Source of the DNA: Bacteroidia bacterium
GTDB lineage: Bacteria; Bacteroidota; Bacteroidia; NS11-12g; UBA9320
Direction of reading: 5' to 3'
Length of the DNA: 57,130 bases
Assembly: GCA_047614125.1 (NCBI GenBank)
Contig: JBLHHI010000003.1
Location: forward strand, 1 to 57,130
The notes under the pieces are model-generated. The model was not told where the DNA came from, did no database searches, and saw nothing but the letters and a program-made list of their open reading frames with translations. Shown one piece after another: positions 18,185-22,569 of this stretch. The position numbers and the translations under genes are program-made. Positions within the stretch are counted from its first letter, which is position 1. The number at the start of each line of letters is the position of its first letter.

Positions 18185-18598
18185 TTAAAGAGCTCTCATC
18201 CGATTGCCTCGCTTGTTGTGTTCAACTTCGGCCAAACCCAAGTGTTCCATCAAAGGGGGTATGTACATTCCAAACCGACCTTTAAAACCATTCTTTAAAC
18301 CGTACCAACCTCCAATGGGATTATCTGCAGATCTACCCCAGTGCTCAACCGTATCGGGCTTGGTTTCTACCTTTTGATCCTTACTTCCCAATTCCATCCA
18401 ATCGCCATGGCTTTTAAGCATGGCATGAAGGTCGTTTAGGCAGCGAATGTCGTAGTGTAATACGGTTGTTTTAACCGTACAAACCAAGATGTCTTTTTTA
18501 TCCTTTTCATCTACGTGCATGGTGTACTCCGAACTTAGAGGCGGAGTTTTTAACGATAGTGGATGCTCTTTTGAACCTATTTTTTCTCTGTAATTCAT
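18185..18598 (-). CDS. Conserved hypothetical protein (DUF6855-like)
   Basis: LKTPP.SSEYTM, WGRS.DNP.GGWYGL, GRFGMYIPPLME.LGLAEVEHN motif set recalled from this family. Confidence 0.75.
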   Translation of the reverse strand: MNYREKIGSKEHPLSLKTPPLSSEYTMHVDEKDKKDILVCTVKTTVLHYDIRCLNDLHAMLKSHGDWMELGSKDQKVETKPDTVEHWGRSADNPIGGWYGLKNGFKGRFGMYIPPLMEHLGLAEVEHNKRGNRMRAL

Positions 18599-18604
18599 AT
18601 TGTT

Positions 18605-19096
18605 TTATTTGGATTCCGCTTCTTTTTTCAAGTCGGCAGTAAACTGTTCAAAGCTTTCATCGAACGATGGAATTTTATTTGCGAAAAGCGGAAACATAAA
18701 GCTTCCAATCTTTTCAGTCATGGTAAACAGAGTTGCGTCTCCTTTTTTCTCCAAGGTATATGTTCTCTTTCCCATGGCATCGCCCCAAACCAGTTTTTCG
18801 TTGTCAACCATCTCTTTCACCTTCAATTTAAAGGTACGCTCAGGATCTAAGGTACTTACAAGTTCTACTTTTTCGCCTACTTCGATGTTTCCTGAAAAAG
18901 AAACGATGGTCGAATTCCATCGTGCAATATCAGTTCCGTTGGTTAGCAAGCCCCATATAACCGAGGCGTCCGCATTAATGGTTTGAGTAATGGTAGTGGT
19001 GCGATTGAAGGTTTTCTTAACTGTTGTTGCAGTTCCGTTTTGAGCCATAACTGTGATGCTTGAAAGGAGGATACAAAGTGTGATGAAGTTTTTCAT
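18605..19096 (-). CDS. SRPBCC (START-like) domain protein with signal peptide
   Basis: INADASVIWGLLT...WNS, C-terminal FEQFTADLKKEAE helix. Confidence 0.85.
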   Translation of the reverse strand: MKNFITLCILLSSITVMAQNGTATTVKKTFNRTTTITQTINADASVIWGLLTNGTDIARWNSTIVSFSGNIEVGEKVELVSTLDPERTFKLKVKEMVDNEKLVWGDAMGKRTYTLEKKGDATLFTMTEKIGSFMFPLFANKIPSFDESFEQFTADLKKEAESK

Positions 19097-19157
19097 TATT
19101 ATAGAATTATAAAGTTTCAAAAAAACGAGTTATGCGCTACAACCCGCTTTACATATG

Positions 19158-19751
19158 TTAATTAATTAAAGTTTTAACCTGTTTGCCGGCTCGTATTCGA
19201 GAAAGACTAACGGGCGATATTTGCAACATAGAGGCAATGTCTTTTAGTGGAGCAACTTGAATAAATCGAGGAAATTGGTATTCAATGTATTTGTAATTTC
19301 GCGTGGCATCGTTGGCCAAGAGGTTGGTAAATACATCTATTAATGTGATGTGTTGGTGTTCGGTTAAATTGTTCCCAAACAAGGCCCAATTTTTTGAGGT
19401 ACCATAAAGATGGAGGAGATTTTGTCTTGAAATCATCATCACCTTTGTTTTTTCGTAAAACTGCAGCGAAAAAATGGATTTTTCTTGATGAACAAAACTC
19501 TTGTATTCGGTAATAAAAATATGTTCTGGCTTCATCCACAAAGTCTGTTCTTCGCCAAGATCATCGACGTAAAAACAACGAGTTATTGAACGTTCTGAAA
19601 AAAACAAGTAGTTGCAAACTCTCCCAGCTTCAGAGATGAGCGCCCCTGCTTCAAAATCTTGAAGTTCGAAAAGCGAAAGTCCAAGTTCAAGCTCTTCTAA
19701 GGTTAAATATGGATTGTGCTTTTGTAATTCGTTGGTTACCAGCGCATTCAT
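19158..19751 (-). CDS. Crp/Fnr family transcriptional regulator; start revised to MNALV
   Basis: cNMP-binding-like core (G.VCNYLFF...RCFY), C-terminal HTH PLKDIASMLQISPVSLSRIR. Confidence 0.9.
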   Translation of the reverse strand: MNALVTNELQKHNPYLTLEELELGLSLFELQDFEAGALISEAGRVCNYLFFSERSITRCFYVDDLGEEQTLWMKPEHIFITEYKSFVHQEKSIFSLQFYEKTKVMMISRQNLLHLYGTSKNWALFGNNLTEHQHITLIDVFTNLLANDATRNYKYIEYQFPRFIQVAPLKDIASMLQISPVSLSRIRAGKQVKTLIN

Positions 19752-19999
19752 TTGGAGACTTTTAAGCTCATGGTTGCAAATATTTTTTTTGCAAGTTAAT
19801 ATAATTGATTTGCCATTCGGTGATTCATATTTACTGGAATTCGACGATTGGCTGCATATTTCAATCGGGTTTTCAAAAATAATAAAATGAATGTGTTTGA
19901 GATTTTTGTTGGATGAAAGGGCTAACATGGCCTAAATTTCTTCAACTTAGGTTATTGGAGCGGATGGGAAATGCAAAGTTTAAATATCTCTGCTCTTCA

Positions 20000-20015
20000 A
20001 CTGACATCAATCATA
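20000..20015 (+). promoter_or_regulatory. Possible Crp/Fnr-type site (TGA-N6-TCA) upstream of the norC-like gene
   Basis: acTGAcatcaaTCAta at 20000-20015, followed by a near -7 box CATATTTG at 20037-20044. Confidence 0.4.
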
Positions 20016-20065
20016 AAAAACAATCCGACTTTCTTTCATATTTGCTCTCGAATTGATCCATACCT

Positions 20066-20515
20066 ATGGCAAAATCATTTTCATTTCTATATGAAAAACG
20101 AGTACTTCTCTTAACCATCGCTGCGGTTTTCACTTGCTTTTACAATGCATCCATTTATACCTCAAAGCCCGCCGTAAAAGCAAGCGTTTTGAGCACAGAA
20201 GCGCTTGCTGGTCAACTAATTTGGCAAGAAAGCAACTGCACGGCTTGTCATCAGTTTTATGGCTTGGGTGGATACCTGGGGCCCGACCTAACCAATGTTG
20301 CTTCTGCCCAGGGCAAAGGAGTACCCTACCTAAAAGCCTTCCTGAACAGCGGAATCAAAAGCATGCCAAAGTATAACTTCAATGAAAATGAAAAGGATCA
20401 ACTTGCAGAATTTTTGAAACATGTAGACCGTACAGGATTCTATCCCAACCCAGCATCAGAAACTATCTGGTTTGGATGGGTGAACCAAATTTATAAAGAA
20501 CCATCTGATGAATAA
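20066..20515 (+). CDS. Membrane-anchored monoheme cytochrome c, NorC-like
   Basis: N-terminal TM, GQLIWQESNCTACH (CxxCH), GYLGPDLTNV, distal Met in SMPKY; resembles cNOR small subunit. Confidence 0.9.
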   Translation: MAKSFSFLYEKRVLLLTIAAVFTCFYNASIYTSKPAVKASVLSTEALAGQLIWQESNCTACHQFYGLGGYLGPDLTNVASAQGKGVPYLKAFLNSGIKSMPKYNFNENEKDQLAEFLKHVDRTGFYPNPASETIWFGWVNQIYKEPSDE

Positions 20516-21845
20516 AACCCGAGTTCCTGCTCTTTTCTTTCTTTTGGCACTAACGGCCTTGTTTATTGGTTTGTTTTTCGGCTTGATTATCGGCCACGAA
20601 TACGCTTCACCGGGCTTTCTTAAGGAGCTTCTTCCGTTTAATAGAATGCGCGAACTGCACGTTGCCTCCGTGGTTTCGTGGATTGTGTTGGCCGCCACGG
20701 GTGGTGTTTATTACTACATCCAAGAAGATGGTTGGCAAGCCTTGCACAATCCACGTTTAAGCAAGGTGCATTTTTGGCTGTTTCTGTTTACGGGCATCGC
20801 AATATTAGTTTCCATTGCTGTTGGCCCTATGGGCGGACGAGAATACCTCACCTTTTATCCGGCCTTGATGATTCCCATTATTTTTGGATGGATTCTTTTT
20901 GCATATAACTACTTTAAAACAGCGAAAACTGGGCAAAAGTGGCCGGTGTACAAATGGATGTGGGCAACCGGAAGCATATTTATGATCTATCATTTAACGG
21001 AATCTAATTTATGGGTGATACCCTATTTTAGAGAGCGCTTTATTTTGGATTTGACGGTGCAATGGAAGAGCTATGGGTCGTTCGTAGGATCTTGGAATAT
21101 GTTGATTTATGGCACGGCCATTTATTTGATGTCGCAAATTAAAAAAGACAGCAACATCGCTCGGAGCAAAACCGCATTTTTCTTCTATTTTCTGGGCTTT
21201 ACAAACTTGATTTTGGGCTGGGCACATCACCTTTACCCAGTTCCAGGAGCACCTTGGATTCGCGGTGTTGGGTATGCAATTAGCATGACCGAGTGGCTCG
21301 TTTTAGCTCAAATGATTTACGCTTGGGCCAAGGCGGTTAAGGAGGATGAAAAGAGAACACATGCCTTTTCATATAAGATGTTGATTGTTACCGATTTTTG
21401 GATCATCGGGAATGTCTTCATCGCCTTGCTCATTTCCATCCCCGCTATTAATCAATTTACCCATGGAACCCACATTACGGTAGCGCATTCTATGGGAACC
21501 ACCATTGGTATTAATTCCAGCATATTAATTGCTTCGATTTACTACGCAATAGGCCGTTGGACAACCATTGATTGGGGCAAGTACAACACGATTTTGATGT
21601 TTGGCAAAGGACTCTTTCACTTAGCCTTGCTTGGCTTTTTATCCTGCTTACTAATTTCAGGATATCACCGTGGACAATGGATGATGTCTGGAAGTACAAT
21701 TCCATTTTCGGATCATTTCGATTCACTGGCCTTGGTATACGACTTGTTCTATGTAGCTGGTTCTTTGCTCGTTGTGGCCATTGTGATGCTGGTTTGGCCG
21801 GCATATCGCATGCTTTGGAAGTTTGTTCGAAATAGTGAGGCGTAA
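20508..21845 (+). CDS. Heme-copper oxidase superfamily subunit I, NorB-related with a non-canonical active site
   Basis: ~12 TM; LPFNRMRELH, GGREYL, GWAHH, NQFTHGTHITVAHSM; overlaps the cytochrome c gene. Confidence 0.88.
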   Translation: MNKTRVPALFFLLALTALFIGLFFGLIIGHEYASPGFLKELLPFNRMRELHVASVVSWIVLAATGGVYYYIQEDGWQALHNPRLSKVHFWLFLFTGIAILVSIAVGPMGGREYLTFYPALMIPIIFGWILFAYNYFKTAKTGQKWPVYKWMWATGSIFMIYHLTESNLWVIPYFRERFILDLTVQWKSYGSFVGSWNMLIYGTAIYLMSQIKKDSNIARSKTAFFFYFLGFTNLILGWAHHLYPVPGAPWIRGVGYAISMTEWLVLAQMIYAWAKAVKEDEKRTHAFSYKMLIVTDFWIIGNVFIALLISIPAINQFTHGTHITVAHSMGTTIGINSSILIASIYYAIGRWTTIDWGKYNTILMFGKGLFHLALLGFLSCLLISGYHRGQWMMSGSTIPFSDHFDSLALVYDLFYVAGSLLVVAIVMLVWPAYRMLWKFVRNSEA

Positions 21846-22318
21846 TCGGGTACTCTTAATCCTGGCTTTTTACTAAACCTCTTTACACGTCTCACATCCC
21901 TTTTTAAGTTTGAAGGCAATCGTTTATTTATGCTTTCTGAATTTTCGTCATCCACATCTAGAACTCTGCTTCTAGAACATCGACTGAGAATTTTAATGCC
22001 ATTTTCCTCCCACAGAAAGAAAAGCCATATTTGACCTTTTTGAATGGGCAAACCACACGAAGCGCTGTACGCACTAGTTTGAACAATGAGTTTGCCGGAA
22101 GTTTGGTCTCCTAACAAGGTTTCTTGAATGTCAATTGTGAACGTTGTTGGATGGATTGAATCCAGTTCAGATATTATTCCAAAACCGATGTAACTGTAGG
22201 CGTTAAGCTCTTCTGCAGATATTTTCTTCGTAAACCGACAAGAGCATGCTTTTACGTCATTGAATGAAAGACCGAAAGCAATAGTTAATAGGAGTGAATG
22301 TATGGTTAAATAATTCAT
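21749..22318 (-). CDS. Secreted TIMP/NTR-like Cys protein (hypothetical)
   Basis: Signal peptide ending VKA then CSC; internal SASCGL and SRCSRS; 3' end overlaps the norB-like gene by 97 bp. Confidence 0.65.
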   Translation of the reverse strand: MNYLTIHSLLLTIAFGLSFNDVKACSCRFTKKISAEELNAYSYIGFGIISELDSIHPTTFTIDIQETLLGDQTSGKLIVQTSAYSASCGLPIQKGQIWLFFLWEENGIKILSRCSRSRVLDVDDENSESINKRLPSNLKRDVRRVKRFSKKPGLRVPDYASLFRTNFQSMRYAGQTSITMATTSKEPAT

Positions 22319-22569
22319 CACACCTTTATTCCAAATGGTTGGTAAAGCGACTTTCAATACTGCGTACTTTTTTGGTTGGACTTTCTCAAATATACAACCG
22401 CACTAACTTTTTTAAATGGATGGATGTAGCTTCTGGCTATAGGTAATGGATTGCGAGCGCGAATTGATCAACACTGTGTACAGCTTTAACTACGCATCAC
22501 AAAACCCTTATGGTTGTTAACGTGCACATCATCTGCTTATTACAAATATTATGCACATTGGCACTATTA

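What the first reader, a model, noticed from the sequence alone, without database searches (positions are those of the whole stretch)
20066..21845. NorC/NorB-like heme-copper oxidase with a rewired active site: best candidate for novel chemistry
Seen: a two-gene operon whose products align by eye with cNOR (LPFN..R..H, GRE, HH, N..THGT..T.AH; NorC-type W..NCxxCH...P.L.NV). Established: in P. aeruginosa NorB, FeB is bound by H207/H258/H259/E211, heme b3 by H347 and heme b by H60/H349, with E135/E138/E215/E280 conserved. Here helix VI WVVHLWVEGVWE reads WKSYGSFVGSWN (H207 to Y, E211 to V, E215 to N; no His in the helix). AHGH reads AHSM (H349 to Met, implying a His/Met low-spin heme), and E138 appears to be T. 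Equivalents of H60, H258/H259, H347, E135 and E280 are kept. Extra His residues (YHLTE, THGTH) might be replacement ligands. The ORFs are full length and uninterrupted, which argues against decay. Inference: neither a canonical NO reductase nor an O2 reductase. I recall superfamily surveys mentioning an uncharacterised cNOR-related Bacteroidota clade speculated to reduce N2O, but I cannot confirm membership.
Basis: partly seen in the sequence, partly recalled or inferred. Interest (0 to 1): 0.85.

Follow-up and report, generated by a model that had tools for sequence, protein, structure and literature searches.

The report
Rewired NorCB-like haem enzyme, function unknown
This two-gene operon encodes a membrane haem enzyme related to bacterial nitric oxide reductase, with a conserved but differently built active site; the family is widespread, already noted in the literature, and has never been tested biochemically.

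Summary
Window 20066-20515 encodes a NorC-like cytochrome c and 20508-21845 a NorB-like haem-copper-oxidase subunit I. Helix VI has no His, and Met329 sits where the second low-spin-haem His should be.

The canonical His aligns with Gly190, not Tyr189. cNOR's Glu211 is a one-residue insertion that is absent here, as in cbb3.

The changes are family-wide, not decay. K187, G190, N197, E262, M329 and E165 are invariant or nearly so in 194 aligned relatives.

A sister subclade has H187/D190/A262 instead. The family forms its own clade beside cNOR/qNOR and cbb3.

It fits the uncharacterised cNOR-related "putative N2O reductase" family of Murali et al. 2024, but I could not check membership because the supplements are closed.

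In relatives the operon lies in denitrification and NO-stress gene islands, sometimes beside a canonical norCBQD. In a 401-genome class sample, 54 of 69 carriers have nosZ. This genome has no nosZ, nirK, NorQ or Hmp-type globin.

Best reading: a cytochrome c-dependent NO reductase-like enzyme that works without NorQ/NorD, used here for NO detoxification (confidence about 0.45). N2O reduction or other chemistry is not excluded.

The parts
19158..19751 (-). Divergently transcribed Crp/Fnr-family regulator. The mechanical ORF runs to 19928; the 197-aa form from the internal Met is the likelier protein.
   Evidence: The 197-aa form matches PDB 3dn7_A, 'cyclic nucleotide binding regulatory protein', at E 9.9e-10 over residues 7-188. 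Pfam cNMP_binding scores only E 0.028, below its cut-off. It is weakly similar to a Crp/Fnr neighbour of the family in L041 (E 0.006).
20002..20015 (+). Candidate Crp/Fnr-type palindromic box, TGACATCAATCATA. It has one mismatch to TGAT-N4-ATCATA and lies 51-64 nt upstream of the norC-like ATG.
   Evidence: An exact TGAT-N4-ATCA stands upstream of the family's norC-like gene in 23 of 64 related loci, against 47 of 711 control upstream regions. Most sit at -55 to -70. In the window, one-mismatch sites are not rare: 8 found against 5.85 expected. Only the position is suggestive.
20066..20515 (+). NorC-like membrane-anchored mono-haem cytochrome c. Haem motif is C58-T-A-C61-H62 (nt 20237-20251); the likely Met ligand is M100 in KSMPKY.
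   Evidence: A NorC-like gene directly precedes the family gene in 76 of 81 loci.
20508..21845 (+). NorB-like haem-copper-oxidase subunit I, K-type member of the cNOR-sister family. Key residues: H51 (nt 20658-20660), E112, E165 (21000-21002), D181, H240/H241 (21225-21230), E262 (21291-21293), H327 (21486-21488), M329 (21492-21494).
   Evidence: AlphaFold2 model: pLDDT 93.9, pTM 0.94. Foldseek: 3o0r_B TM 0.88, 4xyd_A 0.87, cbb3 0.84-0.86.
21063..21098 (+). Helix VI active-site stretch, W186-K187-S-Y-G190-S-F-V-G194-S-W-N197. K187 sits three residues before the canonical His position, which here is Gly190. There is no Glu211 equivalent. N197 takes the place of Glu215.
   Evidence: Alignments. 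K187 is found in 120 of 120 close and 57 of 74 distant relatives (His in 13). G190 is 120 of 120 and 59 of 74 (Asp in 14). N197 is 120 of 120 and 69 of 74.

Best explanation
Shown: the operon encodes a two-subunit membrane enzyme, a NorC-like cytochrome c plus a NorB-like subunit I. It belongs to a large, conserved sister family of cNOR/qNOR and cbb3 within the C-branch of the haem-copper oxidoreductases.

Inferred wiring: electrons pass from periplasmic cytochrome c to haem c (His62/Met100). They then go to a low-spin haem b ligated by His51/Met329, and on to a high-spin haem b3 (His327) that faces a remodelled non-haem metal site.

That site keeps His240/His241 and Glu262, the cNOR Glu280 equivalent. 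It has lost the helix VI His and Glu211. It has gained Lys187 one turn above Gly190. I read this as a 2-His/1-carboxylate iron-type site with a nearby lysine. The sister subclade rebuilds a 3-His/1-carboxylate set from H187/D190.

Protons probably come from the periplasm, as in cNOR, because the Glu135 and Asp198 equivalents (E112, D181) are kept.

Inferred function: reduction of NO to N2O without the NorQ/NorD maturation system, under a Crp/Fnr-type regulator. In this genome, which has no nirK, nosZ, cNOR/qNOR or Hmp-type globin, it would serve NO detoxification. In most relatives it would be the NO-reducing partner of clade II NosZ.
For: Family placement:
- The closest solved proteins are NorB and NorC, and the fold matches at TM 0.88 to 3o0r_B.
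- In a FastTree of 101 rows, the family forms a clade of 84 rows (SH-like support 95), separate from cNOR+qNOR-like (99) and cbb3 (99).

Conservation:
- H51, E112, E165, K187, G190, N197, H240, H241, E262, H327 and M329 are invariant or nearly so in 194 relatives.
- D181 is found in 183 of 194.
- K187/G190/E262 co-vary with H187/D190/A262. The H-type clade of 14 rows has D190 and A262 throughout.
- There is no Tyr at the cbb3 cross-link position; N233 stands there in 174 of 194.

Context in 81 loci:
- RIC Fe-S repair protein in 38, Rrf2 regulator in 30, hemerythrin proteins in 23, NrdD in 23, any nos gene in 27, nirK in 14.
- 60 of 81 loci have at least one such neighbour.

Co-occurrence:
- Order: 15 of 18 carriers have nosZ, against 20 of 173 non-carriers.
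- Class sample: 54 of 69 carriers against 76 of 332 non-carriers.
- 6 of 25 nirK genomes have the family but no cNOR-level hit.

Own genome: no NorQ, nosZ (22), nirK above cut-off (23), ScdA (57) or globin (71), and only three PF00115 genes (21).

Regulation: the TGAT-N4-ATCA box is enriched upstream, in 23 of 64 loci against 47 of 711 controls.

Literature: per Murali et al. 2024 (passages), the Tyr-less HCO families tested so far reduce NO.
Against: - No assay exists for any member in the papers I found.
- The only published guess is N2O reduction.
- The family lacks Glu211 and the third His, which define cNOR's FeB site.
- It lies next to a complete canonical norCBQD in 18-23 of 81 loci. 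It co-occurs with a cNOR-level hit in 6 of 69 carrier genomes. This argues for a role that does not simply duplicate cNOR.
- Its strongest partner is nosZ, not nirK: only 10 of 69 carriers have nirK.
- Metal identity and ligand geometry are inferred from alignment only. No model coordinates were available.
- The Rrf2 neighbour matches only the superfamily model, so it is not shown to be NsrR.
- The co-occurrence counts are not corrected for shared ancestry.
Confidence: 0.45

Rival explanations
1. It is a copper-independent, membrane-bound N2O reductase that turns N2O into N2 at the haem b3/non-haem site. This is the guess published for the cNOR-related family.
For: Murali et al. 2024 propose this for a family 'closely related to cNOR'. 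They cite the membrane-bound, sulfide- and acetylene-insensitive N2O reductase activity of Flexibacter canadensis (passages and reference list). The family gene is physically linked to nos clusters: 27 of 81 loci have a nos gene, and in 6 of the 15 order-level nosZ carriers the two genes lie 5-14 kb apart on one contig. A raised-potential His/Met haem would suit a high-potential acceptor.
Against: 54 of 69 carriers already encode NosZ, so a second N2O reductase would usually be redundant. I know of no precedent for haem/non-haem N2O reduction (from my own knowledge). 13 of 69 carriers, this genome among them, have neither nosZ nor nirK. The neighbouring genes are NO-damage genes (RIC, hemerythrin) rather than N2O-specific ones. 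I could not show that F. canadensis (Solitalea) carries a member.
Confidence: 0.13
2. It carries out another N-oxide or oxygen chemistry, such as NO dismutation, high-affinity O2 scavenging that protects NosZ, NrdD or NadA, or peroxide or hydroxylamine turnover. The lysine-containing site would make this possible.
For: The active site differs from every characterised HCO. The family persists alongside canonical cNOR in the same island. Its neighbours include O2- or NO-sensitive enzymes: NrdD/NrdG, and NadA in 50 of 81 loci. NOD-like qNOR homologues occur in some of the same genomes, so unusual NO chemistry exists in these lineages.
Against: There is no Tyr at or near the cross-link position and no third His, so four-electron O2 reduction by the standard mechanism is unlikely. 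This genome and many carriers already have cbb3 and A-type oxidases. No positive evidence points to any specific alternative substrate.
Confidence: 0.27
3. It is an ordinary cbb3-type oxidase subunit (the name NCBI's annotation gives to relatives) or an ordinary cNOR that was mis-aligned by eye.
For: Sources name relatives 'cbb3-type cytochrome c oxidase subunit I' or 'nitric oxide reductase subunit B'. Some roughly 800-aa relatives are fused to FixO/CcoP-like cytochrome c domains.
Against: The NCBIfam ccoN model scores 31.9 bits against a cut-off of 583. Three alignment routes agree that the helix VI His, the cbb3 Tyr and His349 are absent. The family is a separate clade. Canonical cNORs in the same loci keep WWVVHLWVEGVWE, HH and MHGH.
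Confidence: 0.03
4. It is a decaying or non-catalytic remnant, such as a haem-binding sensor or scaffold.
For: In this genome the operon stands alone, without nir, nos, NorQD, RIC or nadA.
Against: Both ORFs are intact. The query keeps all 24 invariant columns of alignment A1. Its terminal branch, 0.36, is no longer than its sister's 0.42. The family is found in at least 592 species genomes and in 69 of 401 sampled genomes of the class.
Confidence: 0.05

Closest known systems
cNOR (NorCB; Pseudomonas aeruginosa 3O0R, Roseobacter denitrificans 4XYD)
   Same: Both are two-subunit enzymes with a membrane-anchored mono-haem NorC partner. Both have a 12-helix subunit I fold (TM 0.87-0.88). Shared residues are the haem b His on helix II, the haem b3 His, the HH pair on helix VII, and the Glu280, Asp198 and Glu135 equivalents. 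Neither has the cross-link Tyr.
   Different: This protein has no helix VI His and no Glu211. Asn stands for Glu215 and Met for His349. It has an invariant Lys187 and Glu165. No NorQ is detected in this genome. It forms a separate clade.
The uncharacterised cNOR-related 'putative N2O reductase' HCO family of Murali, Hemp et al. 2024 (PNAS, PMC11214002)
   Same: That family is described as closely related to cNOR within the C-family branch, lacking the active-site Tyr and uncharacterised. It was motivated by a Bacteroidota organism and reported in hundreds of genomes (25 NCBI, 597 IMG, 293 GTDB). This family has the same position and the same order of abundance: at least 592 species genomes.
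   Different: Identity is not proven. The main text gives no residues or member list, and the supplements are closed. The N2O-reductase function is their speculation. My context data favour NO.
cbb3-type cytochrome c oxidase subunit CcoN
   Same: The helix VI spacing is the same, without cNOR's Glu211 insertion. The fold matches at TM 0.84-0.86. Some family members are fused to FixO/CcoP-like domains.
   Different: This protein lacks the CuB His on helix VI and the helix VII Tyr (N233 stands there). Its low-spin haem is His/Met. The ccoN model scores far below its cut-off.
NOD (putative NO dismutase, derived from qNOR) and gNOR, nNOR and eNOR
   Same: The theme is the same: an HCO scaffold whose non-haem-metal ligands or low-spin-haem ligand have been replaced. 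Per Murali et al., gNOR has His to Asp, nNOR has a His/Met haem, and eNOR has a His/Lys haem. The H-type subclade's D190 parallels gNOR's Asp.
   Different: NOD is a roughly 760-aa qNOR-type fusion and groups with cNOR in my tree. gNOR, nNOR and eNOR descend from the B-family and have cupredoxin-type partners. This family belongs to the C-branch and has a cytochrome c partner.

Membership tests
Haem-copper oxidoreductase superfamily (PF00115) | Subunit I fold, with a helix II His and helix X His for the two haems and the helix VII HH pair | tested here: met
   COX1 scores 104.1 bits against a cut-off of 34.8. H51, H240/H241 and H327 are invariant. The model has pLDDT 93.9 and matches NorB and CcoN.
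cNOR NorB | FeB ligand set of three His plus Glu211 (His207 and Glu211 on helix VI) | tested here: not met
   Gly190 stands at the His207 position and there is a gap at Glu211. Canonical cNORs from the same loci keep both.
cNOR NorB | Bis-His low-spin haem b (His60/His349) | tested here: not met
   Met329 stands at the His349 position, in 120 of 120 close and 69 of 74 distant relatives.
cNOR NorB | NorC mono-haem c partner encoded immediately upstream | tested here: met
   3o0r_C matches at E 4.1e-13. The pairing is present in 76 of 81 loci.
cNOR NorB | NorQ/NorD maturation genes (their role in FeB insertion is from my own recall) | tested here: not met
   No CbbQ_C hit in the genome, which is 93.8% complete. 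In relatives, NorQ and NorD follow the canonical norCB, not the family pair.
cNOR NorB | Falls inside the cNOR clade | tested here: not met
   FastTree: the family clade has SH-like support 95 and cNOR+qNOR-like has 99, and the two are separate. The base of the tree is unresolved and long-branch warnings apply.
cbb3 oxidase CcoN | Three-His CuB site and the helix VII Tyr cross-linked to the helix VI His | tested here: not met
   G190 and N233 stand at those columns. TIGR00780 scores 31.9 bits against a cut-off of 583.
'Putative N2O reductase' HCO family (Murali et al. 2024) | Close relative of cNOR in the C-branch without the active-site Tyr | tested here: met
   The description of the family comes from passages seen.
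'Putative N2O reductase' HCO family (Murali et al. 2024) | Listed among that paper's family members or matching its curated HMM (Datasets S1-S7) | not testable with these tools
   Supplements are closed, the listing of cluster members was off, and the companion BBA paper is not held.
'Putative N2O reductase' HCO family (Murali et al. 2024) | N2O-reducing activity | not testable with these tools
   This needs a biochemical assay. I found none in print in searches.
NOD (qNOR-derived NO dismutase) | qNOR-type fused N-terminal domain and an HN in place of HH (signature from my own recall) | tested here: not met
   The protein is 445 aa with a separate NorC-like gene, and HH is kept. NOD-like proteins in related genomes fall in the cNOR/qNOR clade.

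The most novel reading that the evidence does not exclude
The family is a new catalytic class of haem-copper-oxidase relative. Its lysine-bearing, two-His non-haem site would perform a reaction that no known HCO performs. The boldest version is copper-independent reduction of N2O to N2, a second biological N2O sink beside NosZ. Another version is a distinct NO-transforming reaction that explains why denitrifying Flavobacteriia keep it next to a canonical cNOR.
Probability: 0.2. Interest if true: 0.9.

Novelty: new member of a known kind. Interest (0 to 1): 0.6.

Why it matters
NosZ is regarded as the only biological N2O sink, and NO reductases as the main biological N2O source. This family is common in Bacteroidia: 69 of 401 sampled genomes carry it, about four times the number with cNOR-level hits. 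It sits mainly in nosZ-bearing organisms that surveys call 'non-denitrifying N2O reducers'.

If it reduces NO, many of these organisms are really nor+nos partial denitrifiers that both make and consume N2O, and marker-gene surveys that use canonical norB miss them. If it reduces N2O, or does something else, it is a new enzyme class in the nitrogen cycle.

The natural pair of active-site variants (K187/G190/E262 against H187/D190/A262) and the His/Met haem also offer a test of how HCO active sites are rebuilt.

Tried and rejected
Rejected. HMMER against two solved NorBs and L-INS-i with cNOR and cbb3 put His207 on Gly190 and make Glu211 a cNOR-only insertion.
- His162 and His322 as replacement ligands. 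Rejected, because they are not conserved.
- E165 as a metal ligand. Doubted. It ends helix V (residues 147-165), while G190 lies 12 residues into helix VI (178-212). This is only a secondary-structure argument.
- Decay or pseudogene, and an ordinary cbb3 or cNOR. Rejected; see the rival explanations.
- 'The family is the only NOR in nirK genomes', used as a gap-filling proof. Dropped. G116-G118 hold two further PF00115 genes of 223 and 176 bits that I did not classify. Nine of 25 nirK genomes in the class sample have neither the family nor a cNOR-level hit.
- nirS. PF02239 found nothing in the genome or in the 191 genomes of the order. In one search the control rang nowhere, so that blank shows nothing.
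- NsrR identity of the Rrf2 neighbour. Not shown. Only the superfamily model passes its cut-off.
- A classical FNR box, TTGAT-N4-ATCAA, in the window. With up to 2 mismatches only one site was found, at -14. The one-mismatch TGAT-N4-ATCATA site at 20002-20015 is not significant by count.
- Expression. No RNA holder listed.
- Atlas search of the 601-aa conserved neighbour. It gave only 'hypothetical protein' clusters from Bacteroidota.
- Whether Solitalea (Flexibacter) canadensis carries a member. I could not find out. Names are shown only for the best hits.
- Supplements of PMC11214002 were not seen. They may already list the family's active-site residues, members and co-occurrence. My statements about what is new are limited accordingly.
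Full report
**What is there**

Window 20066..20515 (+, 149 aa) and 20508..21845 (+, 445 aa) are two intact ORFs that overlap by 8 nt.

The first is a membrane-anchored mono-haem cytochrome c with the motif C58-x-x-C61-H62. It hits Pfam Cytochrome_CBB3 and Cytochrom_C. Its best solved relative is NorC of Pseudomonas aeruginosa (3o0r_C, E 4.1e-13).

The second is a haem-copper-oxidase subunit I (PF00115, 104.1 bits). Its best solved relatives are the NorB of Roseobacter (4xyd_A, E 3.8e-15) and of P. aeruginosa (3o0r_B, E 3.2e-11). cbb3 CcoN is much weaker at 8.1e-4. No NCBIfam model claims it: ccoN scores 31.9 bits against a cut-off of 583.

An AlphaFold2 model built on a 59-sequence alignment is confident, with pLDDT 93.9 and pTM 0.94. 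It superposes best on NorB (TM 0.88 and 0.87), then on cbb3 CcoN (0.84-0.86), then on qNOR (about 0.78-0.82).

**Checking the active-site claims**

HMMER alignments to both solved NorBs and a MAFFT L-INS-i alignment agree. The MAFFT alignment held 16 canonical cNORs from related genomes, 2 cbb3 CcoNs and 44 family members.

- cNOR reads R-W-W-V-V-H207-L-W-V-E211-G-V-W-E215.
- The window protein reads Q-W186-K187-S-Y-G190-S-F-V-(gap)-G194-S-W-N197.
- cbb3 reads Q-G-Y-Y-M-H-Q-G-V-(gap)-G-M-W-F.

Glu211 is a cNOR-specific one-residue insertion that both this family and cbb3 lack. Glu215 is Asn197.

On helix X, A-H327-S-M329 replaces (A/M)-H-G-H. The haem b3 His is therefore kept, and the second low-spin-haem His is Met. 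H51, H240/H241, E112 (Glu135), D181 (Asp198) and E262 (Glu280) are kept. The column of the cbb3 cross-link Tyr holds N233.

**Is it a family trait?**

Yes. A word-indexed search found 1940 relatives with E of 1e-5 or better among the 8000 candidates scored. The best 120 are at 49-62% identity, and where named they are mostly Flavobacteriaceae and other Bacteroidota. An exhaustive search of 50%-identity representatives found 449 clusters at E of 0.001 or better and 103 at 1e-30 or better.

I aligned 194 full-length relatives: 120 close ones and 74 distant representatives.

| Residue | Close (of 120) | Distant (of 74) | Note |
|---|---|---|---|
| H51 | 120 | 73 | |
| E165 | 120 | 73 | |
| K187 | 120 | 57 | His in 13 |
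| G190 | 120 | 59 | Asp in 14 |
| N197 | 120 | 69 | |
| H240 | 120 | 73 | |
| H241 | 120 | 71 | |
| E262 | 120 | 56 | Ala in 14 |
| H327 | 120 | 73 | |
| M329 | 120 | 69 | |

By contrast, Tyr189 (111 and 29), His162 (114, and not among the six commonest in the distant set) and His322 (116 and 36) are only locally conserved.

I built a FastTree of 101 rows. It gives SH-like supports only, the program warned of long branches, and the base of the tree is unresolved. The family forms one clade of 84 rows (support 95). It splits into two parts:

- A K-type clade of 70 rows (support 98) with K187/G190/E262. The window protein belongs here.
- An H-type clade of 14 rows (support 99) with H or Q at 187, D190 and A262.

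cNOR plus qNOR-like proteins (99) and cbb3 (99) are separate clades.

The window protein keeps every invariant column of alignment A1, and its branch is not elongated (0.36 against 0.42 for its sister). Decay is excluded.

Named H-type members come from Saprospirales, Opitutales, Phycisphaerales and Parvularculaceae MAGs, so the wider family is not confined to Bacteroidota.

**What is in print**

Murali, Hemp and co-workers (PNAS 2024, PMC11214002) describe several Tyr-less HCO families. I saw passages by term search, not the whole text. [quoted passage not shown] For this they cite 1990 and 1992 work on Flexibacter canadensis. Their table lists this family in 25 NCBI genomes, 597 IMG metagenome hits and 293 GTDB genomes. 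The 2021 preprint says the same.

The main text gives no residues for this family, and the supplements are closed. The window protein fits the description in position, in the absence of Tyr and in scale: at least 592 species genomes. Formal membership could not be tested.

I found no paper that characterises the family. A 2026 paper on N2O-consuming Flavobacteria screens norB but does not discuss this family (passages).

**Gene neighbourhood**

I took 80 related loci of up to 21 kb plus the window. I called ORFs, clustered them by BLAST and named the clusters with Pfam and NCBIfam. Counts out of 81 loci:

| Neighbour | Loci (of 81) |
|---|---|
| NorC-like gene directly upstream | 76 |
| nadA | 50 |
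| nadB | 49 |
| RIC iron-sulfur repair protein (TIGR03652, above cut-off) | 38 |
| Rrf2-family regulator | 30 |
| Any nos gene (NosZ, NosD, NosF, NosY, NosL) | 27 |
| Hemerythrin-domain proteins | 23 |
| NrdD | 23 |
| NorQ | 23 |
| NorD | 23 |
| NrdG | 20 |
| Canonical cNOR NorB (WWVVHLWVEGVWE, HH, MHGH) | 18 |
| Truncated globin | 15 |
| NirK-cytochrome c (TIGR02376, above cut-off) | 14 |
| Crp/Fnr regulators | 11 |

NadA and NadB usually lie immediately downstream. In all, 60 of 81 loci have at least one N-oxide or anaerobic-response neighbour.

In Flavobacterium and Aequorivita the order is typically canonical norCB, (nirK), norQ, norD, norE-like, COX4-like, then the family pair, then nadAB or NO-stress genes. 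NorQ and NorD therefore go with the canonical enzyme, not with the family pair.

A TGAT-N4-ATCA palindrome stands upstream of the family's norC-like gene in 23 of 64 loci. It stands in 47 of 711 control upstream regions. Most copies are at -55 to -70. This is a Crp/Fnr-type box.

**The window itself**

None of these neighbours is present here. The operon faces a divergent Crp-family regulator (3dn7_A, E 9.9e-10). A one-mismatch box lies at 20002-20015, the usual distance from the start codon, but it is not significant by count.

The genome is 3.24 Mb and 93.8% complete. It has three PF00115 genes: an A-type oxidase, a cbb3-type oxidase and this one. I found:

- no nosZ;
- only a sub-threshold multicopper hit for nirK (53.6 bits against a cut-off of 296.3);
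- no nirS;
- no NorQ;
- no ScdA/RIC;
- no globin;
- no NadA.

**Co-occurrence**

In all 191 genomes of the window's order, the family (scores above 430 bits) is in 18. Of these, 15 have nosZ above its cut-off, against 20 of 173 non-carriers. In six of the 15, the two genes lie 5-14 kb apart on one contig.

nirK is in 7 of the 191 genomes. Three have a cNOR-level hit and no family gene; four have the family.

An evenly drawn sample of 401 genomes of the class gave these counts:

| Group | Genomes |
|---|---|
| Family carriers | 69 of 401 |
| cNOR-level hits (110-139 bits, full length) | 17 of 401 |
| Carriers with nosZ | 54 of 69 |
| Non-carriers with nosZ | 76 of 332 |
| Carriers with nirK | 10 of 69 |
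| Non-carriers with nirK | 15 of 332 |
| Carriers with neither nosZ nor nirK | 13 of 69 |

I verified three of the cNOR-level hits as canonical. For nosZ, the raw odds ratio is 12 and Fisher p is 5e-18, not corrected for relatedness.

Of the 25 nirK genomes, 6 have the family only, 6 have cNOR only, 4 have both and 9 have neither.

The typical carrier is thus a clade II nosZ organism without nirK. This genome belongs to the minority that has the operon alone.

**Mechanism**

This section is inference unless marked otherwise.

Electron path: cytochrome c, then haem c (His62/Met100), then haem b (His51/Met329), then haem b3 (His327). Murali et al. estimate that a His/Met low-spin haem in nNOR raises the potential by about 150 mV. 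The same should hold here.

At the catalytic site, two of the three His remain (H240, H241). K187 sits three residues before the vacated His position, on the same face of the helix, and G190 leaves room for it. The co-variation of K187/G190/E262 with H187/D190/A262 (shown) suggests that K187 and E262 interact in the pocket.

I read the K-type site as a 2-His/1-carboxylate iron site with a nearby lysine acting as proton donor or charge partner. I read the H-type site as a relocated 3-His/1-carboxylate set. Both are compatible with a non-haem iron, as in NORs.

The conserved E112 and D181 suggest that protons are taken up from the periplasm, as in cNOR. That would make the enzyme non-electrogenic.

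The absence of NorQ/NorD implies a different route of metal insertion (their role is from my own recall).

**Function**

I favour NO reduction to N2O, at about 0.45, for four reasons.

- The nearest characterised relatives are NORs.
- Every Tyr-less HCO family tested so far reduces NO (per Murali et al.).
- The neighbours are NO-damage and denitrification genes.
- A nor+nos genotype is a sensible module for the carriers.

Against this, the enzyme coexists with canonical cNOR in one island, it lacks Glu211, and nothing has been measured.

N2O reduction, the published guess, gets about 0.13, because most carriers already have NosZ. Other chemistry gets about 0.27. An ordinary enzyme or a remnant together get under 0.1.

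**Novelty**

The window protein is a new member (62% identity to its nearest relative) of a family that a superfamily survey has already flagged as uncharacterised. The following may add to what is in print, but the closed supplements may already cover them:

- the corrected ligand register;
- the K-type and H-type co-variation;
- the independence from NorQD;
- the Crp/Fnr-type box;
- the coexistence with canonical cNOR;
- the nosZ association.

The finding is real and worth an experiment, but it is not a discovery of a new kind.

Noticed in passing
L088 (G111:C90), L089 (G105:C18), L090 (G112:C202): Three genomes of the window's order that carry the family also encode qNOR-like proteins of about 760 aa. 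In these the helix VII HH reads HN, and the Glu280 column is Gln. I recall this as the signature proposed for NO dismutase (NOD). In G112 this gene lies about 2.3 kb from the family gene.
   Followed up: partly
for example L075:11343-13145 (+), and 26 of 81 loci: A soluble protein of about 600 aa with no Pfam or NCBIfam hit often lies directly beside the family pair. The ESM Atlas shows only 'hypothetical protein' clusters from Bacteroidota. It could be an accessory or maturation factor.
   Followed up: partly
for example L021:18592-19803 (+), and 23 of 81 loci: A His-rich polytopic membrane protein of about 404 aa with no Pfam or NCBIfam hit usually lies next to the RIC and hemerythrin genes in the same islands. 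It is reminiscent of NnrS-type proteins (from my own recall, not tested).
   Followed up: no
50 of 81 related loci; the window's genome as a whole: nadA-nadB (quinolinate synthase and L-aspartate oxidase) lie immediately downstream of, or divergent from, the family pair across several Flavobacteriales families. The link is unexplained. The window's own genome shows no NadA hit at all, at 93.8% completeness.
   Followed up: partly
P0140, P0153, P0157, P0190: Relatives of about 800 aa carry the K-type subunit I fused to a FixO/CcoO-like domain and further cytochrome c domains. This is a cbb3-like CcoNOP architecture on a non-oxidase active site.
   Followed up: partly
window 21749-22357 (-): A convergent 202-aa ORF with no Pfam hit overlaps the last 97 nt of the NorB-like gene. 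Its N-terminus, from an internal Met, looks like a lipoprotein signal. Whether it is a real gene was not tested.
   Followed up: no
canonical cNORs in L006-L080 (for example L008:4665-6008): Flavobacterial canonical NorBs read W-E-G-R-K-F-L-E where P. aeruginosa has G-R-E135-F-L-E138. The Ca-site Glu135 column is therefore Lys in these otherwise canonical enzymes, while the rewired family keeps Glu there.
   Followed up: no
G116, G117, G118 (order relatives): Besides A-type, cbb3 and the family gene, these genomes hold two further PF00115 genes of 223 and 176 bits (open frames of about 560 and 485 aa). They were not classified and could be B-family oxidases or other NOR types.
   Followed up: no
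window 19900-21900: The stretch is held almost whole by four DNA runs labelled 'ice metagenome', from four studies. Two of them may be the source of this DNA.
   Followed up: no
window 18185-18598 (-) and 18605-19120 (-): Upstream of the regulator lie a DUF6855 protein (223 bits) and a secreted SRPBCC/AHSA1-like protein. Neither is found near the family in other loci.
   Followed up: no
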